Virus record (IMG/VR): IMGVR_UViG_3300043418_000182
Length of the DNA stretch: 20,000 bases
Origin: an uncultured virus (IMG/VR IMGVR_UViG_3300043418_000182)
Taxonomy: Duplodnaviria; Heunggongvirae; Uroviricota; Caudoviricetes; Schitoviridae
Strand: one strand, 5' to 3'
Shown here in pieces: positions 4,247 to 20,000 of the stretch. A program made the translations under genes and the position numbers. The notes under the pieces are model-generated. The model made no database searches and was not told the DNA's origin. It was given only the letters and a program-made list of their open reading frames with translations. The number at the start of each line of letters is the position of its first letter. Position 1 is the first letter of the stretch.

Positions 4247-4274
4247 ATGACGCACTTGATGCTCTATGACGCAG
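4247..4274 (+). repeat. Putative integrase arm-type sites (left arm)
   Basis: ATGACGCA at 4247-4254 and CTATGACGCAG at 4264-4274, with a degenerate TTGATGCT copy between them. Confidence 0.6.
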
Positions 4275-4277
4275 CGC

Positions 4278-4314
4278 AAAGAAAAAGGGCCTGAGTCGTT
4301 AGACCCAAGCCCTT
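4278..4314 (-). terminator. Intrinsic terminator downstream of the tRNA fragment
   Basis: Minus strand AAGGGCTTGGGTC-TAAC-GACTCAGGCCCTT-TTTCTTT, 17 nt after the CCA end. Confidence 0.8.
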
Positions 4315-4331
4315 GAATTTACTGCAAATTT

Positions 4332-4381
4332 TGGTGCGCCCGGAGAGACTCGAACTCCCGGCCCCCTGGTTCGTAGCCAGA
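4332..4381 (-). mobile_element. attP: attP core: 3' half of tRNA-Arg(ACG)
   Basis: Minus strand TCTGG-CTACGAA-CCAGG-GGGCC-GGGAG-TTCGAGT-CTCTC-CGGGCGC-A-CCA gives anticodon arm (ACG), T arm and acceptor 3' strand with CCA. No D arm or 5' acceptor strand upstream; about 540 bp from int. Confidence 0.9.
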
Positions 4382-4408
4382 AGGTAGATGAGCCAGTTTC
4401 CCTTGAAA

Positions 4409-4476
4409 GATCAAGTGCTTAGGTGGTTGGTAAATTGTCATTGTCAGGAAATTTGACAGAGCCTAAGTGTTTGATT
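4409..4476. promoter_or_regulatory. Two inverted IHF-like sites flanking TGTCA repeats (attP accessory sites)
   Basis: GATCAAGTGCTTA (4409-4421, +, 1 mismatch) and AATCAAACACTTA (4464-4476, -, exact match to WATCAANNNNTTR); TTGTCATTGTCA at 4435-4446 and TGACA at 4454-4458. Confidence 0.65.
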
Positions 4477-4496
4477 TTTAAGGAAGTCAAAAATGG

Positions 4497-4507
4497 CTAT
4501 GACGCAG
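4497..4507 (+). repeat. Putative integrase arm-type site (right arm)
   Basis: CTATGACGCAG, identical to 4264-4274 on the other side of the core. Confidence 0.6.
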
Positions 4508-4518
4508 TTTTTTGGGGT

Positions 4519-4764
4519 CTACCGGCGTGCAATCCAGCCAACTGGCTCGGTGTCTTCGCTGGTGATCTTGGCATACTCTGTGTCGGCCAAGGTACGGTCT
4601 TCAAAGCAGAACCGTCTGCCCCATCCGGTAGGGTTCATGTCCATGTAGATGGCGCGCGTGAACATCAGGTCTCCGATGCCCACAATGCTGCCGTCTTCCA
4701 ACAACTTGATGTCTCGGTAGCCTCCTAAGGCGCGGATCTCGTCAAGCAATTCTTCATTGGTCAT
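4519..4764 (-). CDS. Hypothetical protein
   Basis: Start reassigned to ATG 4764 (MTNEELL...), which has a GAGG SD and an ATGA overlap. Confidence 0.65.
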   Translation of the reverse strand: MTNEELLDEIRALGGYRDIKLLEDGSIVGIGDLMFTRAIYMDMNPTGWGRRFCFEDRTLADTEYAKITSEDTEPVGWIARR

Positions 4765-4910
4765 TTCATGGCCCTCAGTTTCAGCAAAAGTCCCTCGGTG
4801 TAGAGGCGAGACCAAACGGCGATCGCTCCCGTCGCGTGAGCGAAAGGGAGCAGAGCCATCAGTTTATCGAGCTCTCTATCGGCTCGTTCAACAAGTTCTT
4901 CCCTGGTCAT
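4761..4910 (-). CDS. Small hypothetical protein (49 aa, not in ORF track)
   Basis: Manually translated MTREELVERADRELDKLMALLPFAHATGAIAVWSRLYTEGLLLKLRAMK*; AGGA SD; fills the gap after int and is ATGA-coupled to the next gene. Confidence 0.55.
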   Translation of the reverse strand: MTREELVERADRELDKLMALLPFAHATGAIAVWSRLYTEGLLLKLRAMK

Positions 4911-4916
4911 GTGTTC

Positions 4917-6008
4917 CTATCTGAGGGGCGTTACCCGCTCTGCTTTTCTTCGGTAGATGCGCTCGGTGGTCTTGGCATCTGCGTGGGCCAGTAGGGCTCT
5001 GGCATGTTCAAGGGTGTCTGCATCACTGCCGACCTTGGCCCGAAGGTCATGCTCGGTGAAGTTTTGCTTGACGGCCGTCTCTTTGAGCACTCGTTCAAAA
5101 AAGCGCTGCCACATCGACTTCCACCCAGATGCTTTGCTTGTGGTTTCGTTGACGTAGCCTTGGCCATACCGGTTGCAGAACAAGAACGGTGAGTTGGGGT
5201 TAGACCGTGAAGTCTTGGCCAGCTCTACTGCCTGACGAAGCTCTGGTGACCACTCGTAAATGGTCCGCTTGCCGGTTTTCTTCTTGGTTTTGTGCCTTTG
5301 GGTATGGATGCCGTCTTCTTTAAGTTGATCCTCCTGCAGCCGCAGCAAGTCACCTTGAGCCAGCCCAGTGAGTAGCTTGAGTCGAATGTAGGCTTGGATC
5401 ATCAAGACACTGCCCTTTTTCCTTTTGGAATCCAATGACAGCGCTTCGATGATCTCCCAGTCTTCAACGTAGCGATCTCGGGGCAGAGCGTTTTGAAAGC
5501 GCATCTGGTAGGCAAATGGATGCCGGTTAATGAAGCCCCATTCCACAGCTTTGGTGTAAGCATGGGACAGCAGCTCCACTTCTCTGAGTGCAGCAATTCG
5601 CCCACCTGTCATTCGGCCAGTCTCAGGATCCTTCTTCTTGACCGATCGCTTGTCCACGTACTGGTAAACCAGTTGAGGCGTAAATGGTTCAAGAGGAAGG
5701 TGCCCAAAGATTTGTCGAATCTTTTTGAGCTGGCCTTTGTTGCTTGTTTGACTGGCGGCTGACTTGGTAGGGATGACCTCGATCACATAACGATCAAGCA
5801 ATTGGCCAATGGTCTTGGCAGTGTCAGCCCGTTCCACTCGATCAGCCCATACCTTGTAGGCTTCATTGAGCTTGTCACCCAGGCGGAATACTTTCTTGCC
5901 ATCCCACAAGTGCTCCAAACCAGGGGGAACCCGGTAGTAGTAGGCACCGTGGTCGACCTTCCACCGAAGTGGTAGGCCTTTGTTTTCTTTGAGTCTGGCC
6001 TTGGCCAT
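4917..6008 (-). CDS. int: Tyrosine recombinase (phage integrase)
   Basis: N-terminal arm-binding-like region (GAYYYRVP), box II HDLR, LLAHAD and catalytic Tyr in TERIY; box I reads LLTGLAQGDLL with the Arg absent; adjacent to xis and attP. Confidence 0.92.
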   Translation of the reverse strand: MAKARLKENKGLPLRWKVDHGAYYYRVPPGLEHLWDGKKVFRLGDKLNEAYKVWADRVERADTAKTIGQLLDRYVIEVIPTKSAASQTSNKGQLKKIRQIFGHLPLEPFTPQLVYQYVDKRSVKKKDPETGRMTGGRIAALREVELLSHAYTKAVEWGFINRHPFAYQMRFQNALPRDRYVEDWEIIEALSLDSKRKKGSVLMIQAYIRLKLLTGLAQGDLLRLQEDQLKEDGIHTQRHKTKKKTGKRTIYEWSPELRQAVELAKTSRSNPNSPFLFCNRYGQGYVNETTSKASGWKSMWQRFFERVLKETAVKQNFTEHDLRAKVGSDADTLEHARALLAHADAKTTERIYRRKAERVTPLR

Positions 6009-6232
6009 TACATTGCATCCCAGTTGGGTACTGCTTGTTTGGTTTTACGGTTGGCTTCAGGATTGCCATCAAACACTTTGGTGATGTGGGCTCTGAGGAT
6101 AGCGACGCTTCCATCAGGCCTCACACGGTGTTCAATTCCCATGGCTCTGAGAACCTTGACCTGCGCAGAGCAAACTTTGCGCTGGGTCAGTTCCTTTACT
6201 TCTTCAAAGTCTAGGAAGGTATCAGTGGCCAT
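6008..6232 (-). CDS. xis: Excisionase-like protein (DUF4224-type)
   Basis: MATDTFLDFEEVKELTQRK...AQVKVLRAMGIEHRVRPDG...PNWDAM pattern; TAATG-coupled to int; SD GGAAAGG before ATG 6232. Confidence 0.8.
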   Translation of the reverse strand: MATDTFLDFEEVKELTQRKVCSAQVKVLRAMGIEHRVRPDGSVAILRAHITKVFDGNPEANRKTKQAVPNWDAM

Positions 6233-6449
6233 GCCTTTCCGCCTGAGCCAGGATGTGTTCATCTTCAGCAGCTTGATAAGCAGCTTTCAGCTCTTCGTAG
6301 TGATTCTGGACATACCGGTAGTCAGCGTAGCCCAAGCCAGAAGCTTGAACAGCCTGAATATCGGCCATGTTGAACAGCCCAGTCAAACGAAGCTCTTCGT
6401 AGTCATGCCATTGTTGTAGGCGTTCTTGATTGAATTGAGGTTTTTGCAT
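6222..6449 (-). CDS. Hypothetical protein upstream of xis
   Basis: MQKPQFNQERLQQWHDYEELRLTGLFNM...; start reassigned to 6449 to avoid overlapping the divergent gene. Confidence 0.6.
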   Translation of the reverse strand: MQKPQFNQERLQQWHDYEELRLTGLFNMADIQAVQASGLGYADYRYVQNHYEELKAAYQAAEDEHILAQAERHGH

Positions 6450-6492
6450 GTAAATTGCTTTAAAATTTGGGAAATTCTTTAAAGGGAAACCT

Positions 6493-6912
6493 ATGGCCGC
6501 CAATGAAATGATCGCTAAGTTGTTCCATGCTCGCACTGCTGCGCACATGGCTCATCTTCAAACTCGCTCTTTTGCAGAGCACAAAGCTCTGAACGAGTTC
6601 TACGATGAGATCGTCGACTTGGCGGACACGTTCGCTGAAACATACCAAGGCTTCTTTGGTTTGATCATGGATTACCCACCCATGGGCCTGCCTACTGGCA
6701 AAGCTTGTGATTGGATTGATGGTCTTCGCATGTACCTTGAGAAGAACCGTGAGTCCAACTGCAAAGGCAAAACCACACTTGAAAACATCAACGATGAGTT
6801 GATGGGTCTGTGTGCACAGACTTGCTACAAACTGCGCTTCTTGGACAATCCAGCAATGGAAGAGTCTGCTGAAGAAGAGCAAGCCGAGTACATGGGAATG
6901 TCCAAGTGGTGA
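6493..6912 (+). CDS. Ferritin-like / Dps-like protein (phage DUF5856-type)
   Basis: AHMAHLQT...HKALNEFYDEIVDLADTFAETYQG matches the Dps-like four-helix bundle and its metal-ligand spacing; has its own SD (AAGGGA) and terminator. Confidence 0.8.
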   Translation: MAANEMIAKLFHARTAAHMAHLQTRSFAEHKALNEFYDEIVDLADTFAETYQGFFGLIMDYPPMGLPTGKACDWIDGLRMYLEKNRESNCKGKTTLENINDELMGLCAQTCYKLRFLDNPAMEESAEEEQAEYMGMSKW

Positions 6913-6926
6913 TAAACCACTGAAAG

Positions 6927-6961
6927 AAAAAAGCCCTCCAAGTGAGGGCTTTTTTTTTTTT
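6927..6961. terminator. Bidirectional intrinsic terminator
   Basis: AAAAAAGCCCTC-CAAGT-GAGGGC followed by a 12-nt T run, between the converging Dps-like gene and the polymerase operon. Confidence 0.9.
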
Positions 6962-7091
6962 ATTGTTTCAGGTGGTTCAAGAGGTAAAACATGGCAAGGT
7001 GTGCCGAGTCTTTGGTCTGGGTTTTGTTGAACACCCTCACGTAGTGAAGGTACCAACCCCAGTTGTCACTGCCAACGGGGTAGCGTTTCAT
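6960..7091 (-). CDS. Small hypothetical protein (43 aa, not in ORF track)
   Basis: MKRYPVGSDNWGWYLHYVRVFNKTQTKDSAHLAMFYLLNHLKQ*; ATGA-coupled to the polymerase stop, GGAG SD, ends at the terminator. Confidence 0.55.
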   Translation of the reverse strand: MKRYPVGSDNWGWYLHYVRVFNKTQTKDSAHLAMFYLLNHLKQ

Positions 7092-9727
7092 GCTGTCTCC
7101 ATTTCTTGCATGGCTTTCTTGCACGCCTCAGCGATCGTTGATTGATCTGCGTTGTTGGGCAAGGTGATGGGATGTGCCCAGTCTGGCCAAAAGATGTCCA
7201 GAGCAGCACCCAGCTTCACAGTTGGATGTTGGATCTCAGGCAACTCTTGCCATTGCATGGACTTGATGAGCTCACGGTTGGCCCATTCCACAACGTTGAT
7301 GTCGTCCTTCATCAGGATGTAAATCGCGTCATGGATGAGAGCCACTGGCTTGATGTCGAGTCGGTACTTGGATGCCCAGACCTTCTTCATGAAGTCCACC
7401 GCAGCACGGTTGTTCAATAGGCCATAGGATTGGCCCAATGCGTTACCGGCAGTGCGTCCTTCTGCTGCAGCTTCATAGGGCATGCCCCGGGTACCAAACA
7501 CCACTTGCGAAAGCAGGGGAGTACGGACCCTCAAACCAAATGCCACCTCAACGTAGCCGTCCTTGGCAGCCTGGTGGAGCCGCTTTTGAACGTAGGCATC
7601 ACTGACCTGGTAAAGATCGTGATAGCCCTTCTCGATTGATTTGGCTTTGTCTTCGGGCCAGCCCAAGTTGCTCATCATGCCGTGGTAGGTACCGCCGTAG
7701 GTCAACAAAAAAGTAGGAGCTTTTGAGTCCTGACGGAGCTCTGGAAATTCCTTTTTGATTGTGTTGACTGACTTGGGGTCATCCAGGTCAATATGAGGCA
7801 CCTGGTCACGGAAGTAGTAGGCTGCGCGCAAGCAGTGACCGTCAAAACCTTTTTCGTAGACAGCAAGCTTGTTGGGATCCTTGGTGGTCAGTGCAGAGAT
7901 GTAGTCTTCAAGCGAGTTGAAGTCAGCACCGCCAAACAGCCAGCCAATAGGAGCTTTGAAACACGTCTTGATGATCTTGCCAAACTCAGAGCCTGCAGGC
8001 AGGTTCTGCATGTTGGGATCAGAAGAGCTAAGTCGGCCAGAGACCGTACCACCCAAATTGAACGAGCCATGCAAGTACCGCATGCCATCGGCTTTCATCA
8101 CACCACGCTCAAACGCAGGGATGAAAGTGCTCAGGATTTTGGTGACCTTGCCGTAACCAATCAGCGCTTCAAGGATTTCCTTGTAGGCTGGTTCGTTGGT
8201 GTGGTTGATCAGTTTTTCGATCGTCTCTCCGCCTGTCGCCGGCTGCTTCGTGTCTGTGAGGTCAAGGACTGGGAGCCCCATTTGCTCATAGAGCAGTCTT
8301 TGAAGTTGGGGACCACTGTTAGGGTTAAAAGCAACACCAGCGAACTTTTCAATCGGATGCTGTTTGATCTTAAGTTTTGCATTGGCTTTTTCCATTTCGC
8401 TTTGCTGCAAAAGCAGGTTCAGCATTTGAATCACTGGGCTGTTGTGGATTGCATCGTAGTGACGTTGCTGCTCCCAAACCAGTTCTGTTTTGACTTGCTG
8501 GATTCGGTTGTCTGACATGGGCATGCCTGTCAATTCCAACTGAATGATCAACTTCAAGCTTGGCATCATCAACGTCTGGTAGATGTTGAGCTGCTGGTCT
8601 TGCACCATGGTGGGCCAGAATTTCTCAGCCACATAGTTGGTCGACAAAGCATCCACCAGGTTGTATTGAAGAAGCTCAGGCAACGGAATCTTGCGAATGT
8701 CCTTGATGTCTTCCTTGGCCCAGTTGCCTGCAAACTCATGAGCAAGGCTTTTCAAGCCCAACACGTTGCCAGCAGTGGAATTGGTGGCCAAGTACGCAAT
8801 GATCTTTGTGTCATGAAACCTGCGAGTCATCAATTCCAAACCATCCAGCAATCCTGCTGTGTCCAGCAAGTCGTGCATGAACAGTGTGTAGATGATCACG
8901 CACACGTCGTAATCTGCTTTGTGGAAAATCAACTCACCTTGGTAGGTCGAAAAGAATTCACGCAGCAGAGAACGCACACCACGGTTGATCAATTGCAGGC
9001 CATGAAAGCCGTCTTTAAGATCAATAGCAGCACATGGGTTTGGATGCTTGTCTCTCTCGATGTAATCACAAGCAAACGCAATGCCGTTGTGCTTGTCCCA
9101 GGCAAAAGCAATGGTGCCAATACCAGCTTCGTCAAATGCCAGCGAGAAGGCTTCGATGTCACAACTGAGGCTTGGGTATTGGTGCAGTGATTTGAGAGCT
9201 TCAGCGATGTCGTCAATGGATTCTGGGTACTGCGCGCTGTGAATAATGTTCTGACCCAGCGCTTGGTAGTTGCCAGCCAGCGATGAAGCCAAAGTATGCA
9301 AGCTCAAATCGAGTTTGGCTTGCAACGATGGGTTGTAAATCAACTGCTGGTAATTCAAAGCAAGCACCACATTCATGTGCTCGTAGCCTTTGACTTTGCA
9401 AGGCAGCACGTAACCAAAATGAGGATCTGCTTTGGATTGCCCAGTGAGCGTTTTGAAGTAGTTTGAGTCCGCTACGTAGAGATGCTTGACACCCACCTGA
9501 TCCAATGCAGGCAGCAGGTTGTCCAGATACTCTTTGATGAACTTGGCTGGCGCTTTGCCATCGGGGTTGTACTTGACGGTGAAAGCAATGATGTCGCTTT
9601 CAGAAACACCACGCTTCACCAGCGGGTCAATGTAGTTGATGCGCAGTTCGCTCTTGTTGAAAGAAGTACCTTTCACAAGGACAGCAATGCTGTACGAAGT
9701 GTTTTCGGTGAAGATGTGGTGTCTCAT
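7088..9727 (-). CDS. DNA polymerase family A with 3'-5' exonuclease (N4 gp39-like)
   Basis: ExoI CDIEAF, ExoII FHKADYD, ExoIII YNLVD; TVSGRLSSSDPNMQNLP; motif A GADFNSLE, motif B RQDSKAPTFLLTYGG, motif C IHDA. Confidence 0.95.
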   Translation of the reverse strand: MRHHIFTENTSYSIAVLVKGTSFNKSELRINYIDPLVKRGVSESDIIAFTVKYNPDGKAPAKFIKEYLDNLLPALDQVGVKHLYVADSNYFKTLTGQSKADPHFGYVLPCKVKGYEHMNVVLALNYQQLIYNPSLQAKLDLSLHTLASSLAGNYQALGQNIIHSAQYPESIDDIAEALKSLHQYPSLSCDIEAFSLAFDEAGIGTIAFAWDKHNGIAFACDYIERDKHPNPCAAIDLKDGFHGLQLINRGVRSLLREFFSTYQGELIFHKADYDVCVIIYTLFMHDLLDTAGLLDGLELMTRRFHDTKIIAYLATNSTAGNVLGLKSLAHEFAGNWAKEDIKDIRKIPLPELLQYNLVDALSTNYVAEKFWPTMVQDQQLNIYQTLMMPSLKLIIQLELTGMPMSDNRIQQVKTELVWEQQRHYDAIHNSPVIQMLNLLLQQSEMEKANAKLKIKQHPIEKFAGVAFNPNSGPQLQRLLYEQMGLPVLDLTDTKQPATGGETIEKLINHTNEPAYKEILEALIGYGKVTKILSTFIPAFERGVMKADGMRYLHGSFNLGGTVSGRLSSSDPNMQNLPAGSEFGKIIKTCFKAPIGWLFGGADFNSLEDYISALTTKDPNKLAVYEKGFDGHCLRAAYYFRDQVPHIDLDDPKSVNTIKKEFPELRQDSKAPTFLLTYGGTYHGMMSNLGWPEDKAKSIEKGYHDLYQVSDAYVQKRLHQAAKDGYVEVAFGLRVRTPLLSQVVFGTRGMPYEAAAEGRTAGNALGQSYGLLNNRAAVDFMKKVWASKYRLDIKPVALIHDAIYILMKDDINVVEWANRELIKSMQWQELPEIQHPTVKLGAALDIFWPDWAHPITLPNNADQSTIAEACKKAMQEMETA

Positions 9728-11855: not shown

Positions 11856-12966
11856 ATTTGATTACCTTTCCAAATGGAGCTTCGAACTTGTCGTTGTCAT
11901 GGATGAGCCATAGCACTTCACTTTTGGTGGTGAGTTCGCTAAAGTTGAAGTAGCCATCGGTAAACACAATCAACAGCTGAGGCTTATTGACATTGGCCCA
12001 TTCGAGAACGGGATCAATGTATGTACCACCACGGCCGCTGAAATTCATGTTCATCAAGTCTTTGACGTTTTTCACATCAGCCACTAGCTTCAGCTCGGTG
12101 TCGAACTGAATCATCGTGATCTTTTCTGGCTTCATCATTCGAAGAATCGAATGAGTCTCCGTCACGAATCGGTTGAACTCGTGATCGGATACGGAGCCAG
12201 AGGTGTCCACTGCAATGGCCAGGTTCATCAGGTTTTCACCAAACAAGCTGGGCAAATAGTGACGAGGAAAGAACCTGCGATTGGGTTTGCGGAACGAGTA
12301 ATCGTTCTTGGCAAACGTGCGCAAATACTTCAGCAAAATTTTGTTCCATGGCAGCTTGGGTGTAAGCAAGCGATCCAGGAAGATTTGAATTTCACCAGGG
12401 ATGGTGCCCGGTGCATCGTTGCTCATCTTGGATTGCATGGCTGCTTGACACAGGATGTCTTGCATGTCTGAAGCCAGTTGCTCAGATGCTGCAGGGCTGC
12501 CATCTCCAGGAGCTTCCAGGTCTTCTCCGAAGCCAGCCATGGGTTCGTTATCAGGTTGTTCTGGCAACAGGGCATAGACCTCTTCAGTGCTCATGCCTTT
12601 GTACTGGTCGTCAGCCAAGCCCATGCTGGGCATCTTGAAACCACGTTCTTTTAACTGCAGGTTGATGACGTGGTCTGCTGCGACGTTGAACTTGCGCTGG
12701 TTGAATGATTTGCCGCGCTCCATGTGCAGGTAGGCACAGTGCATGGCCTCATGCAGCATCAGGAAGATTCGTTCGTCATGGCTCAGGCTCATGAAGAATT
12801 CGGTGTTGTAACGCACCTGCGTGCCATTGGTGGCAGCAGTCTTGATGCTGTCATCAAAGATGTGCTTGAGGCTAAAGGCAAGGGTGGTGAAGAAGGCCGA
12901 GTCAGCTCTGGACATCAGAGCAATCTTGGCTTTGTTTAATGCAATATCGTGGGGCAGTTGGGACAT
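11845..12966 (-). CDS. Metallopeptidase-like plus vWA domain protein (N4 gp25-like)
   Basis: TAATNG, HEAMH zincin motif, MIDAS DTSGS, GRGGT and VFTDG. Confidence 0.9.
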   Translation of the reverse strand: MSQLPHDIALNKAKIALMSRADSAFFTTLAFSLKHIFDDSIKTAATNGTQVRYNTEFFMSLSHDERIFLMLHEAMHCAYLHMERGKSFNQRKFNVAADHVINLQLKERGFKMPSMGLADDQYKGMSTEEVYALLPEQPDNEPMAGFGEDLEAPGDGSPAASEQLASDMQDILCQAAMQSKMSNDAPGTIPGEIQIFLDRLLTPKLPWNKILLKYLRTFAKNDYSFRKPNRRFFPRHYLPSLFGENLMNLAIAVDTSGSVSDHEFNRFVTETHSILRMMKPEKITMIQFDTELKLVADVKNVKDLMNMNFSGRGGTYIDPVLEWANVNKPQLLIVFTDGYFNFSELTTKSEVLWLIHDNDKFEAPFGKVIKYEV

Positions 12967-13719: not shown

Positions 13720-14733
13720 TTAGAACAGACTTGCTGCTGACTCGGAGACCCATTTTTGCACCGATGGATGAGACATCATGGTCTTGTTTCGTCGGATGGT
13801 TTCACGCATGGTGACCACCTGAAATTCCACAGGCAAACGCTTGATGAACTTCATCATGGAATCGAAGTTTTCCTTGGTAGCGTTGTGAGCCAATGAGCCT
13901 GTCAGGGCAAACAAGATTGAAGGCTCTTGCGGTACCTTGATGGCTTCAGGTGTGGCCACAATCTGCGCTGGCTTGGGCAAGTCAGCATAGATTTTGCAGA
14001 AGGTTGTGAACTCACGAGCCACCCCCTCAGACAAGGTGCCGGCCAGCATAGGCAAACGTTCAGGTGCACCATCCGCCGTCACTTTGAGGACGCGGTTGGC
14101 AAACTCCCAGGTACGTGGGCAAGCATAAGTCTTGTCCGTGTGGTCTGGGGTGAACGTGTACAGCTGGCCGGGCTTGAACTTCACGTAATCGGTGATGCGG
14201 TGATCGATGTCATTGGCCGAAGCCCATTCCACCCACTCATTGGCATCCACCATAAGCTCCATGTGCACCAGGCGAGACTGCAGGGCAGTGCTCATAGGTT
14301 GCACAATGGCGTTGTCTGTCTCCAAGTTGCCGGCTGCCACGATCGCTACACGATCATGAAGCTGATGGCTGCCCACCTGACGGTCCAGGATCAGCTTGTA
14401 GGCCGCTGCTTGAATGGCTGGAGGCGCTGAGGTGGCCTCATCCAGAAAGAGCATCCAGCCGCTGAAACCAGCAGGCACAGCATCACCTTGGATGGGGAAG
14501 TGCTTCATGGGCACGTAGTCAGCCTTGCCACCTTCAATGGTGGGAAAGCCTGCCAAGTCAGTTGGATCGCATTGGCTCAAACGAAGGTCGATGACCTTGA
14601 GGTTATGTTCCTTGGCGATCTGATAAATGACTTGAGATTTACCGCAGCCAGGTGAGCCCACAAGCATGGGCACCAGCTTGGCACGGATGTAGGAGGTGAG
14701 CATGGCGCTCGCCTGAGAGATTTTTACTTGCAT
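13720..14733 (-). CDS. MoxR-like AAA+ ATPase (N4 gp24-like)
   Basis: Walker A GSPGCGKS, DLRLSQCDPTDLAGFP, Walker B LFLDE, AAGN, ALQSRL and CPRTWE. Confidence 0.92.
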   Translation of the reverse strand: MQVKISQASAMLTSYIRAKLVPMLVGSPGCGKSQVIYQIAKEHNLKVIDLRLSQCDPTDLAGFPTIEGGKADYVPMKHFPIQGDAVPAGFSGWMLFLDEATSAPPAIQAAAYKLILDRQVGSHQLHDRVAIVAAGNLETDNAIVQPMSTALQSRLVHMELMVDANEWVEWASANDIDHRITDYVKFKPGQLYTFTPDHTDKTYACPRTWEFANRVLKVTADGAPERLPMLAGTLSEGVAREFTTFCKIYADLPKPAQIVATPEAIKVPQEPSILFALTGSLAHNATKENFDSMMKFIKRLPVEFQVVTMRETIRRNKTMMSHPSVQKWVSESAASLF

Positions 14734-15167: not shown

Positions 15168-15353
15168 TTAAGCGCTGAGTTTCAGCAGGGTGTTGTGATA
15201 GGTCATCAGCAGACTGAACATTTCGTTCTTGTCTGTGATGGGGAGTTTTGATTCAGCGAAGTCGACGACTTCTTGAAGGCTTCCCAATGTAGGGAAGAGC
15301 GCCATAGGCACCGCACGGAGTAGCGGGTGAGAATTACTTACGGGTTTGGGCAT
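15168..15353 (-). CDS. Hypothetical protein
   Basis: MPKPVSNSHP...LLMTYHNTLL; start reassigned to 15353. Confidence 0.65.
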   Translation of the reverse strand: MPKPVSNSHPLLRAVPMALFPTLGSLQEVVDFAESKLPITDKNEMFSLLMTYHNTLLKLSA

Positions 15354-15660
15354 TGGTTTGTTTGGGGGTTCGCCAAAAGATTGCTTTGAGCATGCACTGC
15401 ACTTTTTCAACAAAAGTCAGTTCAATCATGTCAATGTGGAGTACTGGTTCAGATTTAACTGGTGCTGGAGCGGTCGTTACACCTTCGCTCTTCGTCCTAC
15501 GGACTCGAGCTCGGTTCACTCCCTCCTCAACTAACACTCGTTGAATAGTTCGAATAGACACATCAAAACGATTGGCCAGTTCTTCACAGCTAGTGAGATG
15601 AACGTTGTAAGCAAAAGCTACGTGGATCTTTTGTTCTTCTGTTAAACATTTAACTGTCAT
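15334..15660 (-). CDS. HTH DNA-binding protein
   Basis: SCEELANRFDVSIRTIQRVL helix-turn-helix; AGGA SD. Confidence 0.75.
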   Translation of the reverse strand: MTVKCLTEEQKIHVAFAYNVHLTSCEELANRFDVSIRTIQRVLVEEGVNRARVRRTKSEGVTTAPAPVKSEPVLHIDMIELTFVEKVQCMLKAIFWRTPKQTNAQTRK

Positions 15661-15669: not shown

Positions 15670-16002
15670 TTAGTTTTTAACACCGTGCTCTTCGGCAACG
15701 GTTAAAAGAGCTTGGCTCAGTGTGTTGAAGTGGTTCAACGCTTTCTGAGTTGGAAACAAGTACTTGGTACGGCGGTTCTCGCCTTCGTACTGGTGGTAGA
15801 TCAAACCTGCTTTGCGCAGATCGTCCAACTTACGGTGCAGAGTTGCAGGTGAAGCAATCTCTTGTAGATCCATGCACTCTGTAACAGTCAATGCTTCATG
15901 TGCTGCACAGGTGGCGATGATCTCTAGTAAGCGAAGAGCGGTTAAATCAACACTCAGTTGGTGTTGTTCCGTGTGGGAGAGGAATTTGAGATAGGCTGAC
16001 AT
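15670..16002 (-). CDS. Winged-helix (MarR-like) transcriptional regulator
   Basis: ALRLLEII...ASPATLHRKLDDLRKAGLI...NRRTKYLFPT wHTH and wing motif. Confidence 0.75.
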   Translation of the reverse strand: MSAYLKFLSHTEQHQLSVDLTALRLLEIIATCAAHEALTVTECMDLQEIASPATLHRKLDDLRKAGLIYHQYEGENRRTKYLFPTQKALNHFNTLSQALLTVAEEHGVKN

Positions 16003-17008: not shown

Positions 17009-17102
17009 GTTGTCTTTCTATCGGCTGTGTATAGTCAAAAAATGAATTTTCTGAAAGTTAGGATATCGGTTTGGGTTTTTGGAGAAGTCTCAGAGAACTT
17101 CT

Positions 17103-17136
17103 AAAAAAATAGGGCCTATCCTTTCGGATAAGCCCC
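17103..17136 (-). terminator. Intrinsic terminator after RNAP2
   Basis: Minus strand GGGGCTTATCC-GAAA-GGATAGGCCCT-ATTTTTTT with a GNRA loop. Confidence 0.88.
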
Positions 17137-17180
17137 ACTTCACCCAGTCACCACAGCGCCGGGAAGGCGCGATGGGTAAC

Positions 17181-18425
17181 TCAACACAATCCGTAGCTTG
17201 ACTCCCTGATGACATCTCCAAGGGTGTGAGACAACTTGGGGAAGTACCCTGGCTTGCCATGTATCTGGCTCAACAAGTCGTCCAGCAAGAAGCTGTCAGC
17301 CAAGTCAGCCAAGATTTCCTTGTACTGGAATCGCACCCAGTTCACGTTGTTGGCATGAGCCTTGAACTCGTCATGGATGGTGACAAGCTCAAATGGCTGG
17401 TACTGCAGCATGCCATTGACCATGGTGGCCAAGGCCTCAAGGTGCTTTTTGCTCAGCTGCTGGATGTTGTCCATGTCCAAGTAGGGCAGGATGACCACAT
17501 CAGCCACAGTGCTGCGAACGAACTGGTCAACGTAGTAGCCTGCCTTGCCTGCTGGGCGAGAGACCTCACGGACTTCTCCCATCAGACGTTCCAGCAACTC
17601 TAGCTCGATGAGGCCATCGGCATACTTGACCACATCAACATCGTAGTTACAGCGACGGTGCATGCAGCGCAGGATGTAGGCATCCACACTGTGGGTGAGG
17701 TTGGCGGCATTGCTCAGACCAGACTTTGACCCTTGGTTCTCATAGAACTCGTAGGTAAAGGTGGCATGGTCAAGTTCGTCAACTTCAATCCTGGCTTCCA
17801 CTTTCTTCATGACCTTGATGCGAGCATCAAACCCATCGGGAAGTATCCATTCATGCTGCAAGGCATACGGCTGCCAGCTGGCCAACAAGTCTTGCAGAAG
17901 TTCCCATGCACCAGGTGCAATGGTTTGGGCAGCCTGGTAGAAGGCATCGAGCTCAGGCGTGTTCTCACCAAACAATGTCTTGGGCTGAGCTTTGGAGCCG
18001 TAGAAGGATGTCATCAAAGCCTGTTTGGCATCTGAACGAGACACTTCTAGGCCACCACCCAAGATGACATTCATGGTGTCAGTGCAGGCAGCATAGGCAT
18101 CCGCGCGCACATTGGGGTCAACCAATCCTGTGGCCTTGGCACCAGCTTCACAGCCAGTAAGCACGGACATGACCTGAATGCCTGAGCAGCAGCCATCGAC
18201 ACCAACCATGTGGCCGGTTGGGATACCAGCCAGTGCTTTGCGAATGGCCTGCACAGCTTTCATGTAGAGAGGCTTGGTTTCGGCTTGGTCAGCCAACGTC
18301 TCGAGAACTGTGAGGTTGTCACGGGTCCATTGGATACGGTCTTCAAAGGTGAGCTTGTCCAGTCCAAACTGGGAAGCAGCATCTATGAGCAAGTACTCGT
18401 ATCCGGTATAGGTAGTCATTGCCAT
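17181..18425 (-). CDS. N4-like RNA polymerase II subunit 2 (gp16-like)
   Basis: T7-type motif A VDGCCSGIQ, motif B RSDAKQALMTSFYGS and motif C TIHDEF; 414 aa, the C-terminal half of a T7-type RNAP; AAGGAG SD. Confidence 0.95.
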   Translation of the reverse strand: MAMTTYTGYEYLLIDAASQFGLDKLTFEDRIQWTRDNLTVLETLADQAETKPLYMKAVQAIRKALAGIPTGHMVGVDGCCSGIQVMSVLTGCEAGAKATGLVDPNVRADAYAACTDTMNVILGGGLEVSRSDAKQALMTSFYGSKAQPKTLFGENTPELDAFYQAAQTIAPGAWELLQDLLASWQPYALQHEWILPDGFDARIKVMKKVEARIEVDELDHATFTYEFYENQGSKSGLSNAANLTHSVDAYILRCMHRRCNYDVDVVKYADGLIELELLERLMGEVREVSRPAGKAGYYVDQFVRSTVADVVILPYLDMDNIQQLSKKHLEALATMVNGMLQYQPFELVTIHDEFKAHANNVNWVRFQYKEILADLADSFLLDDLLSQIHGKPGYFPKLSHTLGDVIRESSYGLC

Positions 18426-18448
18426 AGAAGGCTCCTTAGTGGGTTGGT

Positions 18449-18634
18449 TTATCGGGTTGCGTTGAAGAACTTCATCCGCATGGACGCGTCTTCTAACGAT
18501 TCAGTGGCAAGGTCATTGTCATGAAGAGGGTTTTGCATCTGGTCATGCAGCCAGCGTGCTTCATCCTCAGTCAGTACCAATGTCACTTTCTTCGTGCTGT
18601 AGGTTTCGGTGGAAGATTGCATAAAGTCTTTCAA
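18449..18634 (-). CDS. Hypothetical protein
   Basis: 61 aa; start is TTG 18634 or ATG 18622. Confidence 0.6.
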   Translation of the reverse strand: MKDFMQSSTETYSTKKVTLVLTEDEARWLHDQMQNPLHDNDLATESLEDASMRMKFFNATR

Positions 18635-18873
18635 GGTGGGTTGAGTAGTTCCATTACAAGAAGTTCTTTGGGAACATCTTCTAAGAGAACTGGGGTGCCG
18701 TCACATCTAGACCAACAAGTGGGATAGAAGTTGTGGCCTTCGGGATACTTGATGTATCCGCCGTTGTAAACATCAGGAGGTAGGCCTTGAAACCTGACGG
18801 TTTCGTTCTGCCTTACCGATGATGTGAGCATTACCTGATTGGCGTAGTACACACGAGCAGTGCTGTGCTTCAT
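18631..18873 (-). CDS. Small hypothetical protein, member 3 of the C-terminal motif family
   Basis: Start reassigned to ATG 18873 (ATGA overlap, GGAG SD); ends EDVPKELLVMELLNPP. Confidence 0.65.
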   Translation of the reverse strand: MKHSTARVYYANQVMLTSSVRQNETVRFQGLPPDVYNGGYIKYPEGHNFYPTCWSRCDGTPVLLEDVPKELLVMELLNPP

Positions 18874-19079
18874 ACACCCACTCCTAGAAGTAGCAGGTGC
18901 ATGAGAAAGTCCTTGGGCACATGTTCTTTGGCTCGCCTTGTGAGCTTGCCTTTGAACAGCACATACCATGGGCTGGGAATACCAGGCTCATAGATGTACG
19001 CGTGCCTGAACTGACCGTAGTAGAAGCTGTTCAGTGCTATCACTTTCCCATGGGTTGGGTAGATGTAGAACCTGCTCAT
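18870..19079 (-). CDS. Small hypothetical protein, member 2 of the C-terminal motif family
   Basis: 69 aa, ATGA-coupled; ends EHVPKDFLMHLLLLGVGV. Confidence 0.7.
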   Translation of the reverse strand: MSRFYIYPTHGKVIALNSFYYGQFRHAYIYEPGIPSPWYVLFKGKLTRRAKEHVPKDFLMHLLLLGVGV

Positions 19080-19339
19080 GACACGCCCAACAGAAGTAGG
19101 TGTGCCTTGAACTCAGCTGGGAACTCTTGGAGATGTCTGGTTTCCCAGATTGCAGACCAGTTACGAGGCCTGTCGTTTTGAGCCCAGATGCCATAGCGCA
19201 TGTTGGGTTCAGTCTCGAAGTCATCCACACAAGGACAGTATCTGTACTTGTGCATGGCTGCTTGTTCGAACGACTCGGTGCGTACCTGAGGTCGTATATC
19301 TACCAGTCTTTCCTGGTACCAGAAGTACGTTGCCTTCAT
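19076..19339 (-). CDS. Small hypothetical protein, member 1 of the C-terminal motif family
   Basis: 87 aa, ATGA-coupled to RNAP1; ends QEFPAEFKAHLLLLGVS. Confidence 0.7.
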   Translation of the reverse strand: MKATYFWYQERLVDIRPQVRTESFEQAAMHKYRYCPCVDDFETEPNMRYGIWAQNDRPRNWSAIWETRHLQEFPAEFKAHLLLLGVS

Positions 19340-20000
19340 GACACACCCGTCACAATCTCCTCTTTGACCAGCTCAAGCTGAGCCTTTTTGAAGGACGTGC
19401 CCTGCGTAGTGATGTGGTACCCACACGCATAGATGCGGCCACGTTTATCCACCTTGTGGGTGAGATAGAACTGGTTGCCACATTGCACCATCAGGTCGTA
19501 GAACTCATAGCTTTGACGTTTGAAATCAGCCCACTGTTCTTCCTTGTCCTGCGAGTCGAGCTCAAAAGTTGGGTCTTCCTCCACGGTGCAGAGGAAGTCG
19601 GTATCCAACTTCAGGGCCACCTTGTTCATGAGGTTCAGAACATCCAGACACAAGTCTCCATCGTGGTGGTTTCCTGTCCCCAGAATCAACGAATCGTTGT
19701 GGGTGAGGTAGCCTGAGGAGAAGTTGTGGGTCAACTCCAATGGTTCGCACACCATGGGTGGCAAGTACTGAGAGTTCTGGATGAAGTCTTTCAGGTTGTT
19801 GCTCAGAGGTATCCGAGACTCCACCATCAGGCTGGCTGACTTGTCTGCCTTGACAATGTCAAAGGCATCGGTTTCACACAACACTGCAAGTAGCTCCGCT
19901 ACTGTGGTGATGGCTTCAGTACGGTCAGAGAACTTCAGTCGAGAAGCAATCTGGGCACTCACAGATGTGAACAGCTCAGGCTTTTGACTGTAGGCAATGC
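19336..20000 (-). CDS. N4-like RNA polymerase II subunit 1 (gp15-like), 5'-truncated by the window
   Basis: QYLPPMVCEP and the T7-type DxRGRxY motif (HKVDKRGRIYACGY); the frame stays open to the window edge. Confidence 0.92.
   Translation of the reverse strand, partial: IAYSQKPELFTSVSAQIASRLKFSDRTEAITTVAELLAVLCETDAFDIVKADKSASLMVESRIPLSNNLKDFIQNSQYLPPMVCEPLELTHNFSSGYLTHNDSLILGTGNHHDGDLCLDVLNLMNKVALKLDTDFLCTVEEDPTFELDSQDKEEQWADFKRQSYEFYDLMVQCGNQFYLTHKVDKRGRIYACGYHITTQGTSFKKAQLELVKEEIVTGVS

What the first reader, a model, noticed from the sequence alone, without database searches (positions are those of the whole stretch)
4247..20000. Apparently temperate N4-like phage: xis-int-attP module joined to a split-RNAP N4 core
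Seen in sequence: two-subunit T7-type RNAP, AAA and vWA genes, Dda helicase and family A polymerase in N4 gene order, followed by xis, a tyrosine integrase and a tRNA-derived attP. Established: N4 and most characterised relatives are strictly lytic, and their early transcription depends on an injected virion RNAP. Inference: this phage, or a recent ancestor, lysogenises. An induced prophage would have no injected vRNAP, so it needs another route to start the transcription cascade, which implies an uncharacterised lysis/lysogeny switch. Integrase-carrying N4-like sequences may already be known, so novelty is not established here.
Basis: partly seen in the sequence, partly recalled or inferred. 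Interest (0 to 1): 0.88.

Follow-up and report, generated by a model that had tools for sequence, protein, structure and literature searches.

The report
N4-like phage with integration module
This stretch belongs to a virus of the N4 type, a group long thought only to kill its host, and it carries an intact, long-kept gene set for inserting itself into a bacterial tRNA gene; such viruses were first reported from metagenomes in 2023, so this is a well-documented new example, not a new kind.

Summary
The minus strand carries RNAP1, RNAP2 (N4 RNAPII, PDB 6DT7, E 1e-57), AAA, DUF2201/vWA, Dda helicase and PolA in N4 order. A separate operon follows: orf75, xis (DUF4224), int, m98, then a 50-nt 3' fragment of tRNA-Arg(ACG) and a terminator. 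The attP is lambda-like. A phage-specific 10-mer sits once upstream and twice downstream of the core, and the motif differs between relatives. Six independent metagenomic N4-like contigs, four of them ~70-kb near-complete genomes, hold the module at the same place. The one read in full has a 3,433-aa vRNAP, a portal and a terminase. Int diverges in step with core genes (dN/dS 0.05-0.18). Two relatives lost int by deletion but keep attP. This excludes a chimera and a recent hitch-hiker. Integration of this lineage was not seen. Sister N4-like prophages with other integrases sit at tRNA-Cys with 46-50-bp att repeats, one decayed in a Xenophilus isolate and one complete in a Burkholderiaceae MAG. 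Caveats: Int lacks the canonical first catalytic Arg (Ala217), the host is unknown, and no repressor or operator was found (a MarR-fold protein is a weak candidate). Integrase-bearing N4-like viruses were published in 2023 (PMC10654107), so this is a new member of a known kind.

The parts
19336..19998 (-). RNAP1, small subunit of the N4-type RNAPII (5' end lies beyond the window)
   Evidence: phrog_2166 'N4-like RNA polymerase' 2.6e-83; 49-85% identical homologues upstream of RNAP2 in relatives
17181..18425 (-). RNAP2, large subunit of the N4-type RNAPII
   Evidence: PF00940; phrog_2051 3e-147; PDB 6DT7_B 'RNAP2' 1.2e-57; best cultured phage match about 50%
15670..16002 (-). MarR-fold winged-helix regulator (110 aa), a weak candidate for a lysogeny regulator
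   Evidence: Weak Pfam HTH_5/HTH_20/MarR. Profile A3 hits SlyA/MarR chains at E 0.01-0.08. AF2 pLDDT 84.7. Foldseek MexR 4e-5, and the listed top rows are MarR-family or other wHTH regulators. Homologues only in L003, L004, L006, L014.
15334..15660 (-). small HTH protein (108 aa), conserved across the wider clade
   Evidence: HTH_11 0.0033; tblastn hits in 15 distinct loci (L061 duplicates L006), including int-less ones
13720..14733 (-). AAA_5 ATPase
   Evidence: PF07728 2.7e-7; phrog_1297 1e-125
11845..12966 (-). DUF2201_N metallopeptidase-like + vWA-like protein
   Evidence: PF13203 2.1e-41, PF09967 7.5e-26
10273..11523 (-). Dda-like SF1 helicase
   Evidence: AAA_30, UvrD_C_2; phrog_325 2e-109
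7088..9727 (-). family A DNA polymerase
   Evidence: PF00476 6.5e-44; phrog_17 1.4e-145; 74-85% identical in int-bearing relatives
6960..7091 (-). 43-codon frame coupled to the polymerase stop (ATGA overlap)
   Evidence: read from the sequence; the same peptide is encoded after the polymerase of L014
6922..6960 (.). two-way intrinsic terminator ending both the polymerase operon and the DUF5856 gene
   Evidence: 17-pair hairpin flanked by A and T runs; chance Rfam Thr_leader hit on the same hairpin
6493..6912 (+). DUF5856 gene (139 aa), antisense to the flanking operons; replaces the spurious minus-strand 'o198'
   Evidence: PF19174 1.7e-21, 77.5 bits against cutoff 34.6
6222..6449 (-). orf75, first frame of the xis-int unit; no homologue in any locus
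   Evidence: read from the sequence; 0 tblastn hits
6008..6262 (-). excisionase (DUF4224); likely start at ATG 6232 behind GGAAAGG; its stop overlaps the int start (ATGTAATGG)
   Evidence: PF13986 2.6e-11; phrog_1266 excisionase 7.4e-11; sequence
4917..6008 (-). lambda-type tyrosine integrase (363 aa) with an N-terminal arm-binding domain
   Evidence: PF00589 29.7 bits against cutoff 27.1. phrog_1 3.9e-31. Profile A2 aligns to lambda Int 1Z1G residues 1-239, E 7e-5. K240, H320, R323, H342, Y352 invariant, but Ala217 at the Arg I position. dN/dS 0.05-0.18.
4519..4815 (-). m98 (probably 81 aa from ATG 4764), travels with int; function unknown
   Evidence: phrog_24748 4.7e-6. With the full 98-aa frame as query: present in int-bearing L003, L006, L012, L044, L049; not in int-bearing L005/L053 nor in L014/L002. 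The Atlas gave nothing.
4497..4507 (-). P-arm site CTGCGTCATAG, about 115 nt upstream of the core
   Evidence: exact repeat of the P' site; the same position holds a different, phage-specific motif in L003, L006, L012, L044
4332..4381 (-). attP core: 3' part of tRNA-Arg(ACG), from anticodon stem to ACCA
   Evidence: sequence; aligned with the full tRNA-Arg of L005 and the fragments of 9 other loci; 84-88% to annotated phage tRNA-Arg genes
4285..4314 (-). conserved terminator hairpin right after the core
   Evidence: 13-pair stem plus T run; conserved in L002, L003, L006, L012, L014, L044, L049
4246..4274 (-). two P'-arm sites: CTGCGTCATAG (4264-4274) and TGCGTCATT (4246-4254)
   Evidence: pairs at +101 and +120 in the five int-bearing relatives that share this P' arm and in int-less L014
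3021..4232 (-). small genes m89, m62, m73, m67, m84 downstream of attP, same strand as int; shared with int-less relatives
   Evidence: tblastn synteny in L003, L006, L014, L049, L082
1371..2996 (+). lysis block converging on the att region: p182 (phrog_25359), Rz-like spanin 1916-2392, GH19 endolysin 2382-2996
   Evidence: phrog_1327 3.8e-13, phrog_181 5.7e-69, PF00182 1e-10; same block in L003, L006, L014, L049

Best explanation
The window is the middle-gene and replication region of a genuine N4-like phage genome in its free (attP) form, together with the phage's own lysogeny module.

The module is a separate transcription unit on the minus strand: orf75, xis, int, m98. It ends in attP, which consists of one arm-type site, 50 nt of the 3' part of tRNA-Arg(ACG) as core, a terminator, and two more arm-type sites.

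Proposed mechanism (inferred, not shown):
1. After the linear virion DNA circularises, the lambda-type integrase bridges arm and core sites.
2. It recombines attP with the host tRNA-Arg(ACG) gene.
3. The phage copy of the 3' tRNA part and its terminator restore the gene.
4. Xis directs the reverse reaction.

The module is an old, vertically inherited part of this uncultured clade, and some members have lost it by deletion. How the N4 transcription cascade is held silent and restarted is not known. My reading is that the prophage is largely silent by default, because its early promoters need the virion RNA polymerase. Induction would then have to start with host-polymerase transcription of either the vRNAP gene or the RNAPII genes.
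For: Shown:
- The gene set and its order.
- Module anatomy and terminators.
- The tRNA-Arg fragment begins at the anticodon stem in the nine aligned phage fragments; L002 is cut shorter by a deletion, and L005 and L045 carry longer tRNA sequence (11 rows in all). The T arm comes in two mutually compensating variants.
- Arm motifs lie at -132, +101 and +120 from the core. The motif is the same within a phage and differs between phages: window and L049 TGCGTCATAG, L003/L006/L014 CTGCAATT, L012 TTGTACTAT, L044 TGTGCCAT.
- The N-terminus of Int aligns to the arm-binding domain of lambda Int.
- The same DNAP-DUF5856-xis-int-attP-lysis order occurs in L003, L005/L053, L006, L012, L044 and L049. Four of these are 70-73.5-kb contigs rated 96-100% complete.
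- G003, read in full, has a 3,433-aa vRNAP matching N4 gp50 structures at 1e-50, plus portal, terminase and primase.
- Pairwise identities of Int track those of DNAP, Dda and AAA.
- In the DNAP tree, window-type int genes or their remnants fill one 100/100 clade of 8 rows.
- dN/dS of int is 0.053-0.181 in the 9 of 15 pairs where dS was not saturated.
- L002 and L080 lost int by a microhomology deletion. L014 keeps a complete attP without int.
- Sister N4-like prophages are truly integrated. In Burkholderiaceae MAG contig G007:C129 a 50-bp exact repeat (166-215 = 76431-76480, the 3' end of tRNA-Cys) brackets about 76 kb. That stretch holds int, an HTH_17 xis, DNAP and an intact 3,733-aa vRNAP frame, at GC 48% against 60.5% in the flank. 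In the Xenophilus sp. isolate contig G006:C6 a 46-bp repeat brackets a decayed copy.
Against: - No integrated copy, attL or attR of this lineage was found. The RNAP2-profile scan of 185,579 species genomes gave 3 loci, none above 61% identity. The P'-arm scan of the metagenome collection gave 5 loci, all in phage form.
- No host tRNA-Arg matching the core was found: 0 of 401 Burkholderiales genomes at up to 2 mismatches.
- Int has Ala217 where lambda Int has catalytic Arg212, and Gln at the next position. Other members of the same integrase family have Arg at one of the two positions.
- No CI/Cro-type or S24 repressor was found in the window or in G003.
- No repeated palindromic operator was found.
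- The vRNAP, capsid and termini of the window's own genome could not be seen, because no genome is held.
Confidence: 0.75

Rival explanations
1. The module is kept, but the phage is lytic in practice. The integrase is inactive or barely active, or serves another purpose. This would resemble integrase-bearing T7-like phages, for which stable lysogens have not been obtained.
For: - Ala217 sits at the Arg I position, with no Arg at the neighbouring position.
- No integrated copy of this lineage was found.
- No repressor or operator was found.
- Relatives lose int without apparent harm.
- For the T7-like phage LUZ100, the authors state that no stable lysogens were obtained (PMC10134795, passages read).
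Against: - Strong purifying selection on int over long divergence.
- Arm sites that stay matched within each phage while differing between phages.
- Cores that follow different tRNA-Arg variants with compensating T-arm changes.
- Sister lineages really are integrated.
- Recalled, not tested here: functional tyrosine recombinases that lack Arg I are known, for example IntDOT.
Confidence: 0.17
2. The xis-int-attP block is an independent integrative element (an island or satellite) that inserted into an otherwise lytic N4-like genome and has its own boundaries.
For: - The same integrase family also occurs outside N4 contexts. 11 of the 14 int loci show no N4-like neighbour within the locus, and the best cultured match is Xanthomonas phage PBR31 at 55%.
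- Several different integrase types occupy the region downstream of DNAP in related phages.
Against: - There is only one att copy. No second repeat brackets the block, as would be expected for an inserted element.
- Int identities parallel those of core genes.
- The block is ancestral to a 100/100 DNAP clade.
- The P' arm and downstream genes are shared with int-less relatives.
Confidence: 0.05
3. Assembly chimera that joins an N4-like contig to a temperate phage at about 6.4-7.0 kb.
For: GC dips to 0.47 at 6001-7000. Read-level checks were not possible.
Against: The same junction (DNAP, DUF5856, xis, int) recurs in independent contigs from different collections at 54-85% protein identity: L003, L006 and L044 hold all four genes, L005/L053 and L012 hold DNAP, xis and int, and L049 starts at DUF5856. 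It is also found in 70-73-kb near-complete genomes.
Confidence: 0.01

Closest known systems
Integrase-encoding N4-like uncultured viral genomes and N4-like proviruses (Zheng et al. 2023, mSystems, PMC10654107; passages read)
   Same: These are N4-like genomes from metagenomes that carry an integrase. The authors report 54 genomes with lysogeny hallmark genes, 40 proviral regions, and subfamilies in which most members carry such genes. They infer a lysogenic strategy.
   Different: Their main text has no occurrence of attP, attachment site, repressor, induction or Burkholder-. Their proviruses are mainly in Moraxella. Worked out here: the attP anatomy, the tRNA-Arg target, vertical inheritance, secondary losses, and a complete prophage with 50-bp att repeats at tRNA-Cys. 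Their supplementary tables are hosted outside the paper and were not seen, so they may list some of the same IMG/VR contigs.
Escherichia phage N4 and cultured Schitoviridae (e.g. Pseudomonas phages LUZ7, PA26)
   Same: Two-subunit RNAPII (PDB 6DT7 match); AAA, vWA, Dda and PolA in order; in relatives a giant vRNAP, portal and terminase.
   Different: At most about 50% RNAP2 identity to any of 713 phage records with a match. No cultured member is known to carry xis-int-attP (from general knowledge). Here a tail-fibre and lysis block in the opposite direction splits the replication genes.
Lambda Int / attP (heterobivalent tyrosine recombinase with arm-type and core-type sites), and phages that integrate into the 3' part of tRNA genes
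   Same: N-terminal arm-binding domain and catalytic Lys aligned to lambda Int. Arm-type repeats on both sides of the core. A core that supplies the 3' part of the tRNA. Xis directly upstream of int with overlapping stop and start.
   Different: Ala at the Arg I position. The excisionase is DUF4224, not lambda Xis. A terminator hairpin lies between the core and the P' sites.
Temperate T7-like phages with a MarR-like regulator plus integrase (LUZ100, PMC10134795, passages read)
   Same: A phage group classed as strictly lytic and dependent on its own single-subunit RNAP, that carries an integrase and a MarR-fold regulator. The same open question applies: how is the phage polymerase held off?
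   Different: Here the MarR-fold gene lies 9.7 kb from int and not in its operon. It is missing from int-bearing L005 and L012. No operator repeats were found. N4-type phages also depend on an injected polymerase.
Xanthomonas phage PBR31 integrase (MT119766.1)
   Same: Closest integrase in a cultured phage: 55% identity over the full length, with an excisionase directly upstream.
   Different: PBR31 is a 40-kb non-N4 phage. No tRNA-Arg fragment was found beside its int. It has Arg at the +1 position of the Arg I motif.

Membership tests
N4-like phages (Schitoviridae) | Two-subunit T7-type RNAPII (RNAP1 + RNAP2) | tested here: met
   phrog_2166 2.6e-83 and phrog_2051 3e-147; PDB 6DT7_B 1.2e-57
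N4-like phages (Schitoviridae) | Giant virion-packaged RNA polymerase (vRNAP) | not testable with these tools
   The window does not reach that region and no genome is held. The syntenic relative G003 has a 3,433-aa frame matching N4 vRNAP structures at 1e-50. The Burkholderiaceae prophage has a 3,733-aa frame.
N4-like phages (Schitoviridae) | N4 order of middle genes: RNAP1, RNAP2, AAA, vWA, Dda helicase, PolA | tested here: met
   the same order in the relatives with DNAP at 55% identity or more, and in the LUZ7-like loci L020-L022 as far as those loci reach
N4-like phages (Schitoviridae) | N4-type portal, capsid and terminase | not testable with these tools
   Outside the window. In G003, portal phrog_1216 2.8e-248 and terminase phrog_38 1.7e-95. 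The presumed capsid protein gave no PDB sequence hit.
Lambda-type tyrosine integrase | Catalytic set R-K-H-R-H/W-Y | tested here: inconclusive
   K240, H320, R323, H342 and Y352 are invariant in 13 sequences. The Arg I position is Ala217 by alignment to lambda Int R212. Pfam score 29.7 against cutoff 27.1.
Lambda-type tyrosine integrase | N-terminal arm-binding domain, and an attP with arm-type sites on both sides of the core | tested here: met
   Profile aligns to lambda Int from residue 1. 10-11-nt repeats at -132, +101 and +120 that differ between phages.
Lambda-type tyrosine integrase | Demonstrated attP x attB recombination | not testable with these tools
   Needs an assay; no junctions were found in the collections.
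tRNA-targeting attP | Core identical to the 3' part of a host tRNA gene | tested here: inconclusive
   The fragment is clearly tRNA-Arg(ACG). No host gene with this sequence was found: 0 of 401 Burkholderiales. G006 and G007 tRNA-Arg genes are only 76-79% identical to the L005 tRNA.
Temperate phage | Integrated copies flanked by att repeats | tested here: inconclusive
   Not found for this lineage. Met for sister N4-like lineages with other integrases.
Temperate phage | Immunity repressor and operators | tested here: not met
   No CI/Cro/S24 family in the window or G003. Only ORFs of about 50-60 aa or more were scanned. No repeated palindrome was found.
MarR-based lysogeny control of temperate T7-like phages | MarR-fold regulator encoded by the phage | tested here: met
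   window 15670-16002: AF2 pLDDT 84.7, Foldseek MexR 4e-5, TM 0.64; profile hits to SlyA/MarR
MarR-based lysogeny control of temperate T7-like phages | Regulator in one operon with int, and operators at the phage RNAP promoter | tested here: not met
   The gene lies 9.7 kb from int. It is absent from int-bearing L005 and L012. No operator repeats in the window or the whole of G003.

The most novel reading that the evidence does not exclude
Temperate N4-like phages hold their prophage silent without a CI-type repressor. The early promoters are read only by the injected virion polymerase, so an integrated copy is off by default. The decision after infection would be made by a small non-CI regulator acting on RNAPII or on middle transcription; the MarR-fold protein at 15670-16002 or the conserved HTH protein at 15334-15660 are candidates. 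Induction would begin with host-polymerase transcription of the vRNAP or RNAPII genes. The terminator placed after the attP core is separated from int on integration. It could therefore give int a different transcript end in the free and integrated states, as sib does in lambda.
Probability: 0.2. Interest if true: 0.8.

Novelty: new member of a known kind. Interest (0 to 1): 0.5.

Why it matters
N4 is the textbook case of a phage that starts infection with a polymerase it brings in its capsid, and its relatives are used as strictly lytic therapy candidates.

This window shows that a whole uncultured clade of N4-like phages has carried a working-looking lambda-type integration module for a long time. 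The attP is mapped to the base, and the relatives include a complete integrated prophage. Together these turn the published survey-level claim of lysogenic N4-like viruses into concrete parts that can be tested: an Int/Xis pair, an attP of about 300 bp and a predicted attB.

It also sharpens the open question of how a vRNAP-dependent cascade is silenced and restarted. And it warns that the absence of an integrase in one N4-like genome may reflect a recent deletion in a temperate lineage.

Tried and rejected
- Exact 48-nt tRNA fragment in IMG/VR: 0 matches.
- 45-nt core, up to 2 mismatches, in 401 Burkholderiales genomes: 0.
- P'-arm pattern in the metagenome collection: 5 loci, none with a full tRNA or bacterial flank, so no attL.
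- No whole genome is held, so the window's own vRNAP, capsid and ends could not be checked.
- Megablast of the whole window against 50,697 phage records: only a 97-bp hit.
- phmmer of Int against PDB: nothing. Only the profile reached lambda Int.
- The m98 protein in the ESM Atlas: best score 0.85, uninformative.
- The presumed capsid protein of G003 against PDB sequences: nothing.
- Repeated palindromes (arms 6-8, spacer 0-8). In the window, the arms recurring at two or more sites were TTGATG (three scattered sites inside genes) and CAAGGA (two). In G003, the only arm recurring at three or more sites was TTGATG (three scattered sites). No 7- or 8-nt arm recurred in either.
- MarR-fold protein as the general repressor of the clade: rejected as a general answer, because int-bearing L005 and L012 lack it and int-less L014 has it.
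- The minus-strand frame 'o198' (6460-7056) and the long form of 'o108': rejected as genes.
- tRNA-Arg genes of the two prophage-bearing genomes: only 76-79% identical to the L005 tRNA, so they are not hosts of this lineage.
- Earlier notes of this scan: none on this genome.

Full report
OBSERVATION. On the minus strand the window carries, from high to low coordinates: RNAP1 (19336-19998, 5' end outside the window), RNAP2 (17181-18425), about ten small frames, an AAA_5 ATPase (13720-14733), a DUF2201_N/vWA-like protein (11845-12966), a Dda-like helicase (10273-11523) and a family A DNA polymerase (7088-9727). RNAP2 matches the solved N4 RNAPII large subunit (6DT7_B, E 1.2e-57, residues 3-413). 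Its best match among 713 phage records with a hit is about 50% identity, to Enterobacter and Pseudomonas N4-like phages. Further down lie a DUF4224 excisionase (6008-6262) and a tyrosine integrase (4917-6008). ARAGORN reports no tRNA gene. Bases 4332-4381, read on the minus strand, are nevertheless the anticodon stem-loop (anticodon ACG), variable loop, T arm and ACCA end of a tRNA-Arg. They match annotated phage tRNA-Arg genes at 84-88%.

ANATOMY OF THE MODULE. One correction matters. The minus-strand frame between the polymerase and xis is not a gene. The plus strand there encodes a DUF5856 protein (6493-6912; 77.5 bits against a cutoff of 34.6). This gene and the polymerase operon converge on a two-way terminator at 6922-6960. 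That hairpin also explains the chance Rfam Thr_leader hit. The polymerase stop overlaps a 43-codon frame (ATGA). The lysogeny genes thus form their own unit: orf75 (6449-6222, no homologue anywhere), xis (likely start at 6232), int (start overlapping the xis stop, ATGTAATGG), and m98 (4815/4764-4519, unknown function). After these come the tRNA fragment and a 13-pair terminator hairpin at 4314-4285.

THE attP. I aligned the region from the window and ten related loci. The nine aligned phage fragments start at the anticodon stem; L002 is cut shorter by a deletion, and L005 and L045 carry longer tRNA sequence. All eleven end in CCA. In the window and seven related N4-like loci (L002, L003, L006, L012, L014, L044, L049) the conserved hairpin follows the CCA end. 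The window and L005 share one T-arm version (CCGGGAG...CTCTCCGG). Most others share another (TCGTGGG...CCTGCCGG). The differences keep the arm paired, as expected if the cores were copied from different host tRNA-Arg genes. A script that looked for repeated 9-mers within 330 nt upstream and 200 nt downstream of the core found the same layout in the window, in L003, L006, L012, L044, L049 and in the int-less L014 (L005 and L002 do not show it). A 10-11-nt motif occurs about 132 nt upstream of the core and again at +101 and +120. The motif is constant within a phage and differs between phages: window and L049 TGCGTCATAG; L003, L006 and L014 CTGCAATT; L012 TTGTACTAT; L044 TGTGCCAT. In the window the copies are at 4497-4507, 4264-4274 and, degenerate, 4246-4254. 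Two exact 10-mers alone are weak evidence: 42 of 200 shuffles gave two matches at up to one mismatch. The recurrence of the layout with different words is the argument. It is the layout of a lambda-type attP with arm-type sites.

THE INTEGRASE. A profile of 13 integrases of this family aligns to lambda Int (1Z1G, 5J0N; E 7e-5) from residue 1 to 239. This covers the arm-binding domain and the first half of the catalytic domain. By that alignment the catalytic Lys is present (window K240). The HxxR, His and Tyr of the second half are invariant in all 13 (H320, R323, H342, Y352). The first catalytic Arg (lambda R212) aligns to Ala217, followed by Gln. Within the family, Arg stands at the canonical place in 3 sequences, one place later in 3 (among them Xanthomonas phage PBR31), and at neither place in 7. 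Those 7 include all six from N4-like contexts. This is a real caveat. Against a dead enzyme, dN/dS among six N4-linked int genes is 0.053-0.181 in the 9 of 15 pairs where dS could be estimated. The least saturated pairs are L003/L006 (dS 0.53, ratio 0.053), L003/L049 (0.81, 0.181) and L006/L049 (1.01, 0.139). Six pairs were saturated. I recall, without having checked it here, that IntDOT works without Arg I.

RELATIVES AND THE WHOLE GENOME. A polymerase search of IMG/VR gave 43 loci, and an integrase search gave 14. tblastn with 27 window proteins found the window-type int directly downstream of an N4-like polymerase in L003, L005 (same contig as L053), L006 and L012. It was also found in L044 (polymerase end, DUF5856, xis, int). 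In L049 the locus starts at DUF5856 and runs through int into the lysis block. Four of these contigs are 70.4-73.6 kb and rated 96-100% complete. I read one of them, G003 (71,628 bp), in full. It has a terminase, a portal and a 3,433-aa frame that matches N4 vRNAP structures (E 1e-50). It also has primase, exonuclease, RNR and ThyX on the other strand, then a tail-fibre and lysis block, then int, xis, polymerase, helicase, vWA, AAA, RNAP2, RNAP1 and early genes. The RNAP2 protein has more than 100 relatives at 69-88% identity in public metagenomes, many on contigs of 65-78 kb. The window therefore belongs to an abundant, uncultured N4-like clade. Its module lies between the polymerase-side genes and the converging lysis block.

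INHERITANCE AND LOSS. Pairwise identities of Int follow those of polymerase, helicase and AAA: L003/L006 95, 94, 93, 97%; L005/L012 81, 81, 75, 74%; all other pairs 70-82%. I built a polymerase tree of 23 rows. Left out were L016 (insertion), L018, L019 and L027 (partial), and the distant L021-L023 and L028-L043, except that L020, L026 and L031 were kept as outgroups. In this tree the window falls in a 100/100 clade of 8 rows. Five of the 8 carry the window-type int, and one (L004) is cut right after the polymerase. The other two are remnants. L002, and likewise the metagenome contig L080, join int codon 9 to the middle of the tRNA core through the shared word GA(G/C)AA(C/T)CAAGG. L014 lacks xis, int and m98 but keeps the P-arm sites, the core, the hairpin and the P' sites. 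The module is thus ancestral to the clade and was lost at least twice. Outside the clade I looked at 20 loci with polymerase identity of 55% or more and at least 3.9 kb of downstream sequence. For 15 of them (the other five were L003, L005, L006, L012 and L014), 45 frames of 230-600 aa were scanned. Four have the window-type int and four have other Pfam-supported tyrosine integrases (L001, L017, L025, L027). Two have weak candidates: L013 below the cutoff, L016 by tblastn only. Two are the remnants, two have a ParA-type ATPase instead (L007, L019), and six have none. The region downstream of the polymerase is a general seat of lysogeny modules in these phages.

REAL PROPHAGES. A scan of one genome per species (185,579 species) with a profile of 11 RNAP2 sequences gave three loci.

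- Burkholderiaceae MAG, 127-kb contig. An exact 50-bp repeat (166-215 and 76431-76480) is the 3' end of a tRNA-Cys(GCA) gene at 138-211. Between the copies lie a tyrosine integrase (392-1570), an HTH_17 excisionase, polymerase, helicase, vWA, AAA, RNAP2, RNAP1, early genes, terminase, portal, an uninterrupted 3,733-aa vRNAP frame, primase and a lysozyme. Beyond the second copy lie tRNA-Gly, tRNA-Leu, a racemase and fumarase. GC is 48.4% inside and 60.5% outside. The att site sits at the same place on the circular map as in the window, and the virion ends are joined inside the prophage. This is what circularisation followed by integration predicts.
- Xenophilus sp. isolate, 914-kb contig. A 46-bp repeat of the tRNA-Cys 3' end (119320-119365 and 76426-76471) brackets a 43-kb decayed copy. 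It has an integrase (Pfam 4.2e-16), a polymerase cut after residue 158 and only the first half of the vRNAP. GC is 56% against 66-67% outside. Here the module lies between AAA and vWA, so it was acquired at another place.
- The third locus is on a 75-kb contig of a Caryophanon MAG and was not studied further.

None of the three belongs to the window's own lineage (RNAP2 at most 61% identical). Their integrases are of another type: the window Int finds nothing on those two contigs at E 1e-10. Integration is therefore shown for N4-like phages as a group, not for this phage.

HOW IT MOST LIKELY WORKS. Shown: the parts, their order, their conservation and the attP layout. Inferred: Int bound to arm and core sites recombines attP with the host tRNA-Arg(ACG) gene. 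The crossover lies somewhere in the shared 50 nt. The start of the homology at the anticodon stem points to the anticodon-loop class of tRNA integration sites, which I recall from the literature and did not test. After integration the host promoter and 5' part are joined to the phage 3' part and its hairpin, so the tRNA stays whole and terminated. At the other junction, int, m98 and the core abut host DNA and lose the hairpin. Xis directs excision.

The switch is open. No CI, Cro or S24 family was found in the window or in G003. It folds as a MarR-family winged helix (pLDDT 84.7; MexR 4e-5). This is like the regulator proposed for temperate T7-like phages (PMC10134795, passages read). However, it lies 9.7 kb from int, is absent from int-bearing L005 and L012, is present in int-less L014, and no repeated palindrome was found in the window or G003. 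I keep it as a weak candidate only. From what is established for N4 (early promoters read only by the injected vRNAP, RNAPII for middle genes, host polymerase with N4 SSB for late genes, among them the vRNAP gene), a prophage should be silent by default. It must then be restarted by host-polymerase transcription of the vRNAP or RNAPII genes. This is inference.

KNOWN OR NEW. Five full-text searches were run; the four aimed at N4-like lysogeny found one paper that treats it: Zheng et al. 2023 (PMC10654107). It reports 54 N4-like genomes with lysogeny hallmark genes, 40 proviral regions (mostly Moraxella) and subfamilies in which most members carry such genes (passages read). Its main text does not mention attP, attachment sites, repressors, induction or Burkholderia-type hosts. 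Its supplementary tables were not seen. The kind is therefore known, and this window is a new, well-resolved member. The details added here are the tRNA-Arg attP with arm sites, the unusual Arg I position, vertical inheritance with two deletions, several integrase types at one locus, and a complete prophage with an intact vRNAP.

LIMITS. No host tRNA was matched, and no junction of this lineage was found.

Noticed in passing
L007:9979-10674(-) and L019:9129-9824(-): Two N4-like relatives (polymerase 68-71% identical to the window's) carry a ParA/MinD-type ATPase (AAA_31 6.5e-14, CbiA 5.5e-13) beside the GH19 endolysin, where others carry an integrase. This may be a plasmid-prophage life style.
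   Followed up: no
L005:14057-14133(+) (contig G002, 73.5 kb): This int-bearing relative has a full-length tRNA-Arg(ACG) at the att position instead of a 3' fragment. It also has a stray anticodon-loop piece (GGCTACGAACC) 126 nt upstream and an unrelated downstream arm.
   Followed up: partly
L002:14560-14650 and L080 (reverse strand, around its T-loop match): Both contigs show an identical deletion that fuses int codon 9 to the middle of the tRNA core through an 11-nt microhomology. This removes int, m98 and the P arm.
   Followed up: yes
L014:15560-15870: This int-less relative keeps a complete attP (two P-arm sites, core, hairpin, two P' sites). It could perhaps still be integrated by an integrase supplied in trans.
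   Followed up: partly
window 6493-6912 (+): A DUF5856 gene (its sequence has a Dps/ferritin-like look, my impression only) lies antisense between the polymerase operon and the xis-int unit. It is conserved in relatives, where its opposite strand had been mistaken for a gene.
   Followed up: partly
G007:C129 25080-27701 and 15773-17816; G002:C1 70158-72229: The terminase frame of the Burkholderiaceae prophage is 873 aa against 536 aa in G003, with the match in two blocks, which suggests an intein-like insert. RNAP2 there, and also in G002, is split into two matches about 800 bp apart, which suggests an intron or homing-endonuclease-like insert.
   Followed up: no
G006:C6 79865-85237: In the Xenophilus prophage remnant, the polymerase gene stops after residue 158 and abuts the first half of the vRNAP gene on the other strand. 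This indicates a deletion of about 30 kb. An H-NS-like protein and DUF6876 lie in the int module.
   Followed up: partly
G003 (L060:5093-7065, L060:15141-15680): The full relative encodes a 2OG-Fe(II) oxygenase, a radical SAM protein and an Nmad5 (nucleotide modification associated) domain protein. These are possible DNA or nucleotide modification genes. The window region has no Nmad5 homologue.
   Followed up: no
L001:12996-14153(-), L013:16145-17305(-), L016:17446-18612(-); also L017:18509-19666(-): A 385-388-aa frame lies next to the integrase in the sister clade with the other integrase type. In L001, L013 and L016 it has a weak LysR-type N-terminal HTH (HTH_1 8.8e-6 to 8.7e-5, at or below the cutoff). 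The L017 frame of the same size and place gave no Pfam hit. It is a possible regulator of that module.
   Followed up: no
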